DNA from: the human T2T-CHM13v2.0 reference genome, Homo sapiens
DNA length: 64,000 bases
NCBI RefSeq assembly: GCF_009914755.1
Contig: NC_060926.1
Reading direction: 5' to 3' (one strand)
The notes beneath the pieces are model-generated. The model was not told where the DNA came from. It saw only the letters and a list, made by a program, of their open reading frames with translations, and searched no databases. Shown here piece by piece: positions 27,791 through 31,826 of the stretch (positions are counted from its first letter, which is position 1; each line of letters opens with the position of its first letter). The translations under genes and the position numbers were made by a program.

Positions 27791-28915
27791 CAGCTAGATG
27801 ATCTCCCTCTCTGGCCTGTGCCGACATGTGTGACTGACAACACGATGGAGCAAGAAGTAAAGCCCGAGGGGTAACCTTAATCCCTCTGACCTGCGACCTA
27901 CTGCTTTCGCCCCCAGGAGCCTTTTTCTTCTCTGGGCCTACTGTAAGCGCCCCAGTGGCTGGAATGGAACGGTTTCCAGTCTGGAATGGTTGACACTAAT
28001 GGCCAAAGAGTAGGGGGTCCCACGTGCTTGGTTAAAAGGTGAAAGTAAATGCGGGAGTCTGGAAGGACTTCCTATAGGCACAAAATCTGCCCCCTCCCCC
28101 CCAACTTTGGGAAATATGGATTACCAACAGGTTTGTGTCAACTCAGTGTTTCAAGCACCTTGCAAGTTTCAGTTTGCGAAGAAAAGACTTTGGTGAGACC
28201 AAAGCCACTGCTTTTAAAATTGTTTAAAATTTTACAATTAGTACACAAAAGGGATTTATACTATGAATAAAGACTTCTTGGGCATTTATGGATCATAAGT
28301 TAAGAACTTCTGCACTAGAGATATATAGAGTACAGTACAGAATACAGTACACAGATCTTTCTGGGACAGAAGCTGTATTTTAGTTTGGTCAGTATCTTAT
28401 GGCTAAACTGTTATGTGAATGAGAAGCACCAGCATATTGTATAGTGTTCCAGTAATCTTCTAGGGGGTTGGTTTGGCATGCCAGCTTTCTCTGAAAGAGC
28501 ACAAGATATACAATGATCTATAGAAACTTGGTGTTAGTCATTCCACAGGAATCATTGGATTCAGGCACAGCTTGACGATAGAGTGATCAAAGGGACCCTG
28601 AGTAAGAGCTAAAGGAAGAGAAACCTTTGTCTTCAAATTGGACTTTTAGACCATGTAACTCATCTAGAATGAGAGCAATTAATCAGTGAGGCAAGGAATA
28701 CTAACATGATTAAGAACTTAGATCCAAGAACTTGTGACATGAACACAGAAATACTTACAGTATAGGTCATAGAAGTATTTTGGAAATTCAGAGAAAAAAA
28801 GAGATGACTTCTGACTAGATGAAAATTCAGATTAATTATCCAGCAAATGACAAAGTGCCACAATTCTGATGGTACTTCTCTTTCCTTTAATGAAAGGTTT
28901 GCTTTATGGGTAATA

Positions 28916-29359
28916 CAGGCTGAGTATTTCTTATTCTAAATGCTTGGGACCAGAAGTGTTTGGACAAGAAATGAATCCTGCCAGGCCAAGGCAGGCGGAT
29001 CACTTGAGGTCAGGAGTTCGAGACCAGTTTGGATAATATGGTGAAACCTCATCTCTACTTAAAAATAAAAATAGCTGTGCATGGTGGCACATGCCTGTAA
29101 TCTCAGGTACTTGGGAGGATGAGGCAGGAGAATGACTTGAACCCAGGAGGTGGAGGTTGCAGTGAGCTGAGATGGTGCACCATTGCACTCCAGCCTGGGC
29201 AACAGGGTGAGACACTATCTCGAAAAGGAAAAAAAAGAAATGTATCCTCCCCTTCTAGCCCATTTCTCCAATGAGCGTTTCCCTGAGTGTCATGGTGGTG
29301 CTCAAAAAATTTTGGATTTGGGAGCATTTCAGATTTTTGGGTTAGGGATATACAACCTG
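28916..29359 (+). mobile_element. Tigger4 (Zombi)-type DNA transposon inserted in the MDM2 retrocopy
   Basis: TIRs caggctgagtat / atatacaacctg; aaatgcttgggaccagaagtgttt; TA duplication; MDM2 homology resumes exactly (gtaaTA|agagaaatatgttgtgaa). Confidence 0.88.
28981..29237 (+). mobile_element. 5'-truncated AluS inside Tigger4
   Basis: Alu body plus A tail; TSD aagaaatgaatcct/aagaaatgtatcct. Confidence 0.92.
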
Positions 29360-29396
29360 TAAGAGAAATATGTTGTGAAAGCAGCAGTAGCAGTGA

Positions 29397-29591
<195 letters not shown>

Positions 29592-30062
29592 TAGACATGG
29601 GGAGAGTGGTACAGATTCATTTGATGAAGGTCCTAAAATTGCCTTAGCTGCCTTGGACATGTACTTTATTAAATGAAATTAATCCTCCTCTTCTAGGCCA
29701 TTTCAACAGATGTTGGGCCCTTTGTGAGAACTGACTTCCTGAAGACAAAGTGATAGAGGGAAAATAAGCTCAACCTGAGTAGAAGGGGCTTTGATGCTCC
29801 TGATTATAAAACCAAACAAAAAACCTATAGTGAATTACTCCAAAGAGTAATATGTTCATGTGTGGAGGAAAATGATGAGAGAACTCACATCAGCCTCCCA
29901 TTCCCAAGAGACCGAGCACTGTTGTCAGCCAGCAACTTCTAATAGCATCATTTAGAGCTGCCAAGAAAATGTCAAAGACCTTGAGTGGAAAGAAACAAAC
30001 AAGAAAGAAGAAAGTGTGAATCTAGTTTTCTCCTTAATGCCATTGAACTTTGTGTGCTTTAA

Positions 30063-30152
<90 letters not shown>

Positions 30153-31826
30153 TGAGTCAGTGTAAAGACAGCCAGTTCAAATGATTCTGCTTACATCCCC
30201 TAGTTGGCCTGTTCATAAAAGTAGAATTTCTATCTATATAACTCTAAATATTAGACAACATAAAAAGTATTATTAATTTTTTTACATGTATCAAAGCAAA
30301 AAAGTATCTTAGCCCATGTGCATTTATTTTCTTTTGTTCAGTTTACCTACTTTTCTGGGTGGGGGGCAGAGGGTGGTAATAAATATTTTCTTCCTTTTAG
30401 GAAAAATTTTATTTGTTTATATTTTATATTTGGGGTTCAATGTAATTGGAATTGGATATATAGCTCATCCTTTACACCTAAGCCCCTATATTTTAAATCA
30501 TGTCTACTTTCTTTTAAATGAGAAGTATCTGATTTTTGAAATATGTATGTGTTTGGGGGGATCATTTAAATGTAACTTATTTAATACTTTTCATGTAAGA
30601 AGGAAAAGTTTCTGTGAAAAATTTAATATTTAAATTTTAGATCTTAAATCTTCTCATCTTTAGTTTCTCTGCTCTTTCAGAGGCTCTTAAAATACTCTTT
30701 TGAGATAAAAAATAAATTGGTAGTTATATTTGGTGCTATGTAAGTAAAAATGTACTTATTTTCCAGTCTCTTCAGTTTGGAAAGGATACGTGGTAATGAT
30801 GGTGTCAATCAAGGTATCTTTGAGAATATCCATCATTTACCCATAAGATCAAACTTTTTAAGGCCCTCTAACAGAATATGGAGTTGTCCTGGGGGGTCCA
30901 ACCTGGTATCCAGGCCCTTTGTCACACCTGATCTCAGGATTTAGTGAAATCTATTGTTTCTCCTAAGTGGAAAACAGTTCTAAGACATTTGAAATTTACT
31001 GGGCTAGGTTCCATAATTCCTGGTAGTTGCCTAGGTTTCTGACCCTTACTTAAGGCAAGTTTAGAAACCAGTGAATTCAGAAAGATAAACTCAGAAATTT
31101 GATAAACAGAAAATTTGTTCATTTTAAAATTAGCCAGAAAGGTTACAACTTCTAAGTGAATTACAAAGTACTCATCACTTTCCTTTAAGAATCGTAGGTT
31201 CAGAACACAGAATTCTAAAATATCTCTCAAACTGTGTAGATTAACTTATTTACATATTTATATGTGAATCTTCAGCAAAGTAGTGCAAATAACCAGTGTG
31301 ATTTAGGGTCCCATTATTTTTCCTCCATATATGATCATTGTACATATTTGGGGGTGGACAATAACAAACTGAGCTATAAGTTTAGAATTGAACTGAAGGA
31401 TAATTTCTCACACCAAATTTGTGTGCCAGTTACTAACAATACATTGTTCTTACAAACTTTAAAAATGAAAGCCACACAAATAAATACCTTACATATGTAT
31501 ACATATTTATGTAGAAGATGAATGGTTGAACAGAACTTTAGCCAAAGAGTGGTCCTCAACTACAGGAAAGCTTTATTAATTTGAAATTTATAATATTTCT
31601 AGTAGAAGTAAGTAAATTTATCCTGAGGAGAGTGGGTAGTATAAATGAGATTATAAACCATGTATACCCTGACTATATGTAGCAGTGATTATGCCATTTA
31701 CAAAACATTTAAATATGGGTGCAAATGTAGTGTCATTACACATGCCTATGGATTACTAAAGTACTCTTGTCTAAATTTTTAGGTTTAATATACATATACT
31801 ATTTATTGATTTACACATAAGCAGTT

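What the first reader, a model, noticed from the sequence alone, without database searches (positions are those of the whole stretch)
28695..28818. Second insert at another MDM2 exon junction: possible undescribed ancient cassette (poison) exon
Seen: ~124 nt sits between agtgaggca(a) (SET) and atgaaaattcagat (EENSD), which I recall as the ACAG|AAGAAAAT exon boundary. It ends in ctag, has no TSD or poly-A, and its 3' half looks like antisense L2. Two inserts at junctions are unlikely by chance. Inference: an L2-derived cryptic exon from that MDM2 intron was spliced into the source mRNA; ~124 nt would frameshift, consistent with an NMD-type regulatory exon.
Basis: partly seen in the sequence, partly recalled or inferred. 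Interest (0 to 1): 0.7.

Follow-up and report, generated by a model that had tools for sequence, protein, structure and literature searches.

The report
Fossil MDM2 intron-8 exon in pseudogene
A dead, very old copy of the MDM2 messenger RNA on chromosome 2 carries, exactly between exons 8 and 9, a 124-base piece whose first third comes from the middle of MDM2 intron 8, so it probably preserves an ancient extra exon that would cut the MDM2 protein short.

Summary
Window 28695-28818 (124 nt) lies exactly between the last base of MDM2 exon 8 and the first base of exon 9 in an old processed MDM2 pseudogene.

I found the parent gene on contig C12 of the same genome. The first 43-46 nt of the insert match one place there: the interior of intron 8, same strand, in order with the exons, 36 of 42 aligned bases identical. 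The match starts directly behind an AG. No shuffle (0 of 300) reaches its score in the 50 kb locus.

This is not a retained intron end. It has no target-site duplication and no terminal poly-A, and it is not a detectable dispersed repeat. So a spliced-in cassette exon of the source mRNA is the best reading.

A sister insert at the exon 4/5 junction shows the same thing more clearly. It matches an 87-nt segment of intron 4 with AG and GT flanks and a shared in-frame stop.

Limits:
- The 3' 78 nt of the insert cannot be placed anywhere.
- In today's human intron the match is followed within about 22 nt by an Alu and an antisense L1.
- The L2 origin could not be tested, and an L1 origin was tested and not supported.
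- "Poison exon" and "undescribed" remain inference.

The parts
28695..28740 (+). 5' part of the insert: copy of the interior of MDM2 intron 8 (C12:68806409-68806452), starting right behind an AG in the parent gene
   Evidence: blastn gives 84% identity over 43 nt, collinear between the exon 8 and exon 9 matches. 36 of 42 aligned bases are identical. 0 of 300 dinucleotide shuffles reach its score in the 50 kb locus on both strands. It is the best of 3395 AG| sites: 23 of 28 identical against a next best of 16 of 28. Junction alignment.
28741..28818 (+). 3' part of the insert: origin not placed. Either the rest of the same ancient exon, a second small exon, or later DNA.
   Evidence: No significant match to the rest of intron 8 (444 of 2000, 171 of 1000 and 304 of 3000 shuffles reach the scores). 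Also none to the 50 kb locus (best E 0.065), exon 9, the window, the genome (only itself) or L1 profiles.
28594..28694 (+). Pseudogene copy of MDM2 exon 8. Its last base, 28694, abuts the insert.
   Evidence: 79 of 96 aligned bases identical to C12:68804134-68804230. Junction alignment.
28819..28915 (+). Pseudogene copy of the first part of MDM2 exon 9. Its first base, 28819, abuts the insert.
   Evidence: Alignment to C12:68808350 onward starts at the first base of exon 9.
28272..28371 (+). Sister insert at the exon 4/5 junction: copy of an 87-nt segment of MDM2 intron 4 (C12:68794185-68794271) that has AG and GTGAGC flanks in the parent gene
   Evidence: blastn E 7e-15. 75 of 86 aligned bases identical plus a 13-nt gap. 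Flanks ...CCAAG| and |GTGAGC. Both junctions are exact. A stop at codon 19 is shared by the human and pseudogene copies.
28916..29359 (+). Control: a true later insertion inside exon 9 (not at a junction). It is a dispersed repeat carrying an Alu, flanked by a duplicated TA.
   Evidence: The parent has one TA at the site (GTAATAAGGG) and the window has TA on both sides. The right arm has 595 first-look candidates genome-wide, 40 of 40 scored matching, many ending at the same terminus. Alu-type SRP hit at 29074-29223.
28110..31792 (+). Whole processed MDM2 pseudogene as traced here: exons 3-12 and part of the 3' UTR
   Evidence: Collinear blastn matches to C12:68788790-68823727. Pooled identity over constitutive exons is 1345 of 1643 aligned bases, 81.9%.

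Best explanation
The window holds an ancient processed pseudogene (retrocopy) of MDM2. The mRNA that was reverse-transcribed was not the standard isoform. Between exons 8 and 9 it carried an extra exon spliced in from the interior of intron 8, and between exons 4 and 5 another one from intron 4. The 124 nt at 28695-28818 are the decayed copy of that intron-8 exon, or of that exon plus something else at its 3' end.

Shown: the insert lies exactly on the exon 8/9 junction. Its first 43-46 nt are homologous to one site inside intron 8, and that site begins right behind an AG.

Inferred: the whole 124 nt was one exon. Its inclusion broke the reading frame after codon 168, upstream of the nuclear localisation signal, acidic, zinc-finger and RING regions. 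Such an mRNA would be an NMD substrate or encode a truncated protein holding only the p53-binding part. The pseudogene itself does nothing; it is a record.
For: 1. Exact junction placement on both sides.

2. Unique, collinear, same-strand match of 28695-28737 to C12:68806409-68806450, between the exon 8 and exon 9 matches. 36 of 42 aligned bases are identical, against a pooled 81.9% for constitutive exons.

3. Significance. 0 of 300 shuffles of the 46-nt piece reach the score in the 50 kb locus on both strands (observed 27.5; shuffle mean 14.9, sd 1.1, max 19.0). Among 3395 AG| sites on the + strand this one is the outlier, 23 of 28 against a next best of 16 of 28. With the whole 124 nt against intron 8 alone, 2 of 500 shuffles reach the score.

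4. The parent sequence reads ...TTTTTAAAAATAG|GGAACAC, so homology starts at an acceptor-type AG.

5. Precedent in the same retrocopy. The insert at the exon 4/5 junction equals an 87-nt intron-4 segment with AG...GTGAGC flanks, E 7e-15.

6. Contrast. The one clear later insertion lies inside exon 9, has a duplicated TA and belongs to a repeat with 595 genome candidates. Insert 2 has no flanking duplication and only itself as a genome candidate.

7. Frame. The pseudogene copy reaches TAG at 28763-28765. 124 is 1 mod 3. Either shifted frame of exon 9 contains stops.
Against: 1. The 3' 78 nt (63% of the insert) have no significant counterpart in intron 8 or anywhere else searched. So it is not shown that the whole insert is one intron-8 exon.

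2. No donor GT can be tied to the end of the insert. The GAG|GTAAGAG I first considered at C12:68806877 lies inside an antisense L1 (nhmmer E 2.1e-65 for 68806778-68807319; ORF2p hit), and its alignment to the insert is not significant.

3. The acceptor has a poor pyrimidine tract (CACCTTTTTAAAAATAG).

4. The pseudogene carries many indels, so neither the 124-nt length nor the stop codon can be projected onto the ancestral exon.

5. Two frame-breaking exons in one germline transcript is unusual if each is rarely included.

6. No transcript evidence, no other species and no annotation of MDM2 were available.
Confidence: 0.72

Rival explanations
1. Composite insert. Only a short exon of about 46-70 nt came from intron 8. 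The remaining 55-78 nt are something else: a second small exon from elsewhere in intron 8, or DNA that entered the pseudogene later next to it.
For: Homology to intron 8 is significant only for the first 43-46 nt, and the rest is unplaced. The human intron has a weak GT 55 nt after the AG (AAAAC|GTAAAA, seen). The best, non-significant, match for the 3' part lies 1.3 kb downstream, beyond the antisense L1 and a second Alu (C12:68807754-68807810, 63% identity, E 0.18). 111-304 of 3000 shuffles reach it, and 10 of 430 locus windows score as high.
Against: A later insertion landing exactly at the end of a short exon copy, with no target-site duplication and no repeat identity, is a coincidence. 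None of the candidate placements is significant.
Confidence: 0.22
2. Unrelated later insertion into the pseudogene, for example an L2 or other old repeat fragment, that happens to lie at the exon 8/9 junction.
For: The 3' part matches nothing in MDM2.
Against: The first 46 nt match intron 8 uniquely and start at an AG (0 of 300 shuffles). The junction placement is exact. A second junction insert in the same copy is clearly intron-derived. There is no target-site duplication and no other genome copy, whereas the same tool finds 595 candidates for the real repeat next door.
Confidence: 0.04
3. Retrocopy of an mRNA with intron 8 retained, followed by deletions that left only an internal piece.
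For: None specific. Intron retention is common.
Against: It would need two deletions, one ending exactly at the exon 8 end and at the AG, the other at the exon 9 start. The match is 2179 nt from exon 8 and about 1.9 kb from exon 9, not at the intron termini.
Confidence: 0.02

Closest known systems
[quoted passage not shown]
   Same: A retrocopy preserves the exon structure of the particular mRNA isoform that was copied, including exons absent from the standard transcript. That is exactly what is seen here at two junctions.
   Different: I saw only this paper's title, in reference lists; the paper is not held, so its content is recalled. Whether MDM2 was among its cases is unknown. Here the copy is very old, and one of the two exons can be traced only in part.
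Poison (PTC-bearing) cassette exons coupled to nonsense-mediated decay, and the MDM4 exon 6 switch
   Same: Inclusion would end the reading frame early, after codon 168 for this insert and after codon 52 plus 18 codons for the intron-4 exon, far upstream of the last exon junction. MDM4, the paralogue, is known to be controlled by an NMD-coupled splicing switch (abstracts listed, e.g. PMC5333071 and PMC12035866).
   Different: For MDM4 the unproductive form arises by skipping an exon, not by including one. For MDM2 no inclusion, NMD sensitivity or regulation was or could be shown here. In the human gene the intron-8 site is now interrupted by an Alu and abuts an antisense L1.
Known MDM2 splice variants (MDM2-A, -B, -C, -D and others)
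   Same: They use the same exon borders. The codon 27/28, 52/53 and 222/223 borders computed fit the deletions I recall for these variants. PMC11327330 states that Val28-Glu52 is one exon (passages read).
   Different: Those variants skip exons (table passage in PMC9502224). The forms recorded here add intron-derived exons.

Membership tests
Processed pseudogene (retrocopy) of MDM2 | Collinear match to the parent's exons with the introns precisely absent | tested here: met
   Exons 3-12 match in order, and the junctions fall at the parent's AG/GT-defined exon edges.
Processed pseudogene (retrocopy) of MDM2 | The parent is MDM2 | tested here: met
   The last coding exon of the C12 locus equals Mdm2 residues 301-491 in PDB chains (E 2.4e-129). 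The joined exons give a 491-aa frame. The hub table names the window's 28175-28689 an MDM2 pseudogene. In the genome only MDM2, one paralogue-like locus on C1 and this copy match the last-exon protein strongly.
Processed pseudogene (retrocopy) of MDM2 | Poly-A tail and target-site duplication of the retrocopy | not tested
   The 3' UTR was traced to 31792. I did not look for the end of the copy.
Cassette exon recorded in a retrocopy | The extra sequence lies exactly at an exon-exon junction | tested here: met
   Exon 8 ends at 28694 and exon 9 starts at 28819.
Cassette exon recorded in a retrocopy | The extra sequence is homologous to the interior of the corresponding parent intron, on the same strand | tested here: inconclusive
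   Met for the first 43-46 nt. Not met for the other 78 nt.
Cassette exon recorded in a retrocopy | The parent segment is bounded by AG upstream and GT downstream | tested here: inconclusive
   The AG directly precedes the start of homology. The downstream end cannot be located, so no GT can be assigned. For the sister exon in intron 4 both are present.
Poison exon (splicing coupled to NMD) | Inclusion introduces a premature stop more than 50 nt upstream of the last junction | tested here: inconclusive
   The pseudogene copy has an in-frame TAG at 28763-28765 and a length of 124 nt. The human site reads open for 66 nt and then runs into the Alu, with a stop after 182 nt. Both shifted frames of exon 9 hold stops. 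The ancestral sequence is unknown.
Poison exon (splicing coupled to NMD) | Inclusion seen in transcripts and raised when NMD is blocked; conservation across species | not testable with these tools
   No RNA-seq, no transcript annotation for MDM2 and no other vertebrate genome were available.
   No repeat library was available. Genome searches with the insert and with its 3' part return only themselves. Rfam finds nothing in the insert at E up to 1.
L1-derived exon (my own lead from recall) | Similarity to the L1 ORF2 3' region | tested here: not met
   nhmmer profiles built from genomic L1 copies gave no hit in 28695-28818 at E up to 10, while they found the L1 pieces of intron 8. Pairwise tests against 3 L1 copies: 17 to 466 of 500 shuffles reach the scores.

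The most novel reading that the evidence does not exclude
MDM2 has had frame-breaking cassette exons in introns 4 and 8 since before the retrocopy was made, roughly the age of placental mammals. They were included together in a germline transcript. At least the intron-4 exon (C12:68794185-68794271) has intact AG/GT flanks, a shared stop, and is 87% identical to the fossil against 82% for coding exons. On this reading it is still a working, unannotated poison exon through which MDM2 output, and so p53 activity, is tuned, and which could be forced in with antisense oligonucleotides.
Probability: 0.2. Interest if true: 0.65.

Novelty: new member of a known kind. Interest (0 to 1): 0.42.

Why it matters
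MDM2 is the main brake on p53. Its paralogue MDM4 is known to be set by an unproductive splicing switch that is being targeted in cancer.

A retrocopy that froze an MDM2 mRNA with two intron-derived, frame-breaking exons shows that such isoforms existed in the germline of an early mammal. It also gives exact places in the human gene to look for them: the acceptor at T2T chr12:68,806,409 and the exon at chr12:68,794,185-68,794,271.

If they are still used, they would be handles for lowering MDM2.

If not, this remains a tidy example of a pseudogene as a splice-variant fossil. It also explains why the RefSeq pseudogene model stops at 28689, just before the insert.

Tried and rejected
1. Donor at C12:68806877 (GAG|GTAAGAG) as the end of the exon. 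Rejected: the alignment of the 3' part to the post-Alu stretch is not significant (444 of 2000 shuffles), and that stretch is antisense L1.

2. The 3' part as a diverged duplicate of the start of exon 9, prompted by a 12-mer repeat. Rejected: 188 and 373 of 1000 shuffles reach the scores.

3. The 3' part placed beyond the L1 and second Alu at C12:68807754-68807810. Not significant: E 0.18; 62-171 of 1000 shuffles; 111-304 of 3000 shuffles and 10 of 430 windows.

4. The insert as L1 ORF2 3'-region sequence, a likeness I recalled. Not supported by pairwise tests or by iterated nhmmer profiles. The profiles did find an L1 sense remnant just upstream of the acceptor (C12:68806280-68806379, E 0.02 in round 1 only; 0 of 500 shuffles against one of three L1 copies).

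5. The insert as a dispersed repeat. Genome searches return only itself, as does the parent site. There is no hit in the window. Sensitivity for short, old repeats is low.

6. Constraint on the cassette exons. They are 86-87% identical to the fossil, against 82% for coding exons and 80% for the 3' UTR. These differences are not significant (P 0.05-0.34), and no neutral baseline is available, so I make no claim.

7. Terminal inverted repeats of the third insert. Not significant (159 of 1000 and 191 of 2000 shuffles). The TA duplication and the repeat status do hold.

8. Literature. Searches:
   - 'MDM2' + 'poison exon': 46 papers, 15 listed.
   - 'MDM2P1': 3 papers.
   - MDM2 / cryptic exon / NMD / intron 8.
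   - 'MDM2' + 'pseudoexon'.
   - 'MDM2' + 'novel exon' + 'premature'.
   - Six phrases such as 'MDM2 intron 8' and 'MDM2 exon 8a': 0 papers.
   Passages checked in PMC11327330, PMC13702666, PMC4492733, PMC9502224 and PMC2557557 hold nothing on such exons.

Full report
WHAT IS THERE

The window (T2T chr2:22196001-22260000 according to the hub) holds a decayed, intronless copy of MDM2. With whole-genome searches of the window's own assembly I found the parent gene on contig C12. I fetched 50 kb of it and aligned the pseudogene to it.

The matches run in order:

| Piece | Window coordinates |
|---|---|
| exon 3 | 28109-28197 |
| exon 4 | 28192-28267 |
| extra piece (insert 1) | 28269-28370 |
| exon 5 | 28378-28503 |
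| exon 6 | 28486-28549 |
| exon 7 (about 24 nt lost inside) | 28550-28593 |
| exon 8 | 28593-28691 |
| extra piece (start of insert 2) | 28695-28737 |
| exon 9, first part | 28817-28915 |
| exon 9, rest | 29360-29421 |
| exon 10 | 29420-29572 |
| exon 11 | 29557-29682 |
| exon 12 | 29653-30581 |

The 3' UTR continues to at least 31792.

The parent's exon edges are fixed by canonical AG/GT signals. The joined exons read as one 491-aa frame. The last coding exon is identical to residues 301-491 of PDB chains named E3 ubiquitin-protein ligase Mdm2 (E 2.4e-129). No other MDM2 retrocopy is detectable in the genome.

Pooled identity of the pseudogene to the constitutive exons is 1345 of 1643 aligned bases, 81.9%, with many indels. 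The copy also lacks the Alus that now sit in the parent's 3' UTR. From that divergence and generally used mammalian substitution rates (my inference, not a tool result) the copy is of the order of 80-100 million years old.

THE OBSERVATION

- Exon 8 of the parent ends ...AGTGAGACAG|GTATAT, after codon 168 in phase 1.
- Exon 9 begins CCAG|AAGAAAAT.
- In the window exon 8 aligns to 28694 and exon 9 resumes at 28819. The insert is exactly 28695-28818, 124 nt.
- It ends in CTAG and has only an internal run of A.
- No direct repeat flanks it. The one 12-mer it shares with the start of exon 9 is no more than chance.

WHERE IT COMES FROM

The first 43 nt match one place in the 50 kb MDM2 locus, C12:68806409-68806450. 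This lies on the same strand, between the exon 8 and exon 9 matches, 2179 nt from exon 8 and about 1.9 kb from exon 9. So it is the interior of intron 8, not its ends.

- 36 of 42 aligned bases are identical.
- Of 300 dinucleotide-preserving shuffles of the 46-nt piece, none reaches the observed local score anywhere in the locus on either strand (27.5 against mean 14.9, sd 1.1, max 19.0).
- The parent reads ...CACCTTTTTAAAAATAG|GGAACACAAACATGATTAAG..., and the homology begins at the base after that AG.
- Among all 3395 AG| sites on the + strand of the locus this site is the outlier: 23 of 28 ungapped identities against a next best of 16.

Together with the exact junction placement, this is what a spliced-in exon predicts, and what a later insertion or a retained intron does not.

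THE PRECEDENT AND THE CONTROL

The same retrocopy holds a clearer case. The piece at 28272-28371 lies exactly at the exon 4/5 junction, after codon 52; PMC11327330 (passages read) also gives Val28-Glu52 as one exon.

- It equals C12:68794185-68794271, an 87-nt segment of intron 4 with ...CTATCCAAG| before it and |GTGAGC after it.
- 75 of 86 aligned bases are identical, and the pseudogene has a 13-nt duplication inside.
- Read in frame, the human segment and its fossil both stop at codon 19.

So the source mRNA certainly carried at least one intron-derived, frame-ending exon.

The third large insert (28916-29359) behaves differently.

- It lies inside exon 9.
- The single TA of the parent is duplicated on both sides.
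- It contains an Alu.
- Its right arm belongs to a repeat with 595 first-look candidates in the genome, 40 of 40 scored matching.

The same kind of search with insert 2, with its 3' part and with the parent site returns only the query itself.

WHAT REMAINS OPEN

The 3' 78 nt (28741-28818) cannot be placed.

- Against the rest of intron 8 the scores are those of shuffles.
- The best hit in the 50 kb locus has E 0.065.
- Exon 9, the rest of the pseudogene, the window and the genome give nothing.

In today's human intron the matching 44 nt are followed after about 22 nt by an Alu (68806474 to about 68806779). Directly after that comes an antisense L1 (68806778-68807319, nhmmer E 2.1e-65). One of its frames matches L1 ORF2p residues 956-975 in the PDB (E 0.0024).

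The strong-looking donor GAG|GTAAGAG that I first took for the end of the exon lies inside that L1, so I dropped it.

Three possibilities remain: the L1 split the old exon after the retrocopy was made; the exon was short and the rest of the insert has another origin; or the counterpart has simply decayed. The weak candidate beyond the L1 (68807754-68807810) is suggestive at best.

My own recalled likeness to the L1 ORF2 3' region was tested with profiles built from genomic L1 copies and was not supported.

HOW IT WOULD WORK

Exon 8 ends in phase 1.

- The fossil copy reads 23 codons and stops (TAG, 28763-28765).
- Its length is 1 mod 3.
- Both shifted frames of exon 9 hold stops.

Inclusion would therefore most likely end the protein after the p53-binding region and before the nuclear localisation signal, acidic, zinc-finger and RING parts. 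It would place a stop far upstream of the last junction, which is the usual mark of an NMD substrate.

This is inference. The pseudogene has many indels, the human site reads open until it runs into the Alu, and no transcript data could be consulted.

KNOWN OR NEW

A retrocopy preserving an alternative isoform is a known kind of thing (Shemesh et al. 2006). I saw only the title, in reference lists; the paper is not held.

Full-text searches for MDM2 with poison exon, cryptic exon, pseudoexon, novel exon and intron 4 or intron 8 phrases, and the passages I read, gave no description of these exons. However, the annotation of MDM2 itself, splice databases and supplements were not checked. So "undescribed" stays open.

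I file this as a new member of a known kind, of moderate interest. The intron-4 exon is the stronger lead for a still-working poison exon. The intron-8 exon, the subject of this finding, may be only a fossil in humans.

Noticed in passing
window 28272-28371: Insert at the exon 4/5 junction equals an 87-nt segment of MDM2 intron 4 (C12:68794185-68794271) with AG and GTGAGC flanks. 75 of 86 aligned bases are identical. An in-frame stop at codon 19 is shared by the human and fossil copies. The fossil has a 13-nt internal duplication.
   Followed up: yes
window 28916-29359: Insertion inside the exon 9 copy, flanked by a duplicated TA. It carries an Alu (about 28980-29216). Its right arm is a dispersed repeat with 595 genome candidates. 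It holds a sub-threshold Rfam mir-1290 hit at 29285-29353 (38 bits against a gathering score of 82). The terminal inverted repeat test was not significant. It looks like a Tc1/mariner-type element from recall only.
   Followed up: partly
window 28110-31792: The RefSeq pseudogene model (28175-28689) stops just before insert 2. The retrocopy in fact continues through exons 9-12 and into the 3' UTR, to at least 31792. It lacks the Alus now present in the parent's 3' UTR (about C12:68819729-68820936).
   Followed up: partly
window 28550-28593: The exon 7 copy has lost about 24 of its 68 nt internally. Only the first 27 nt and the last ~18 nt are recognisable.
   Followed up: partly
L012 (C12:68806280-68807319): Around the intron-8 site in the human gene there is a possible L1 sense remnant just upstream of the AG (68806280-68806379, E 0.02 in one profile round only). 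Downstream come an Alu (68806474-68806779) and an antisense L1 ORF2 fragment (68806778-68807319, E 2.1e-65).
   Followed up: partly
window 29074-29223: Rfam sub-threshold hits to Metazoa_SRP (40 bits) and mir-3135 (52 bits) lie within the Alu. This is the ordinary Alu likeness.
   Followed up: no
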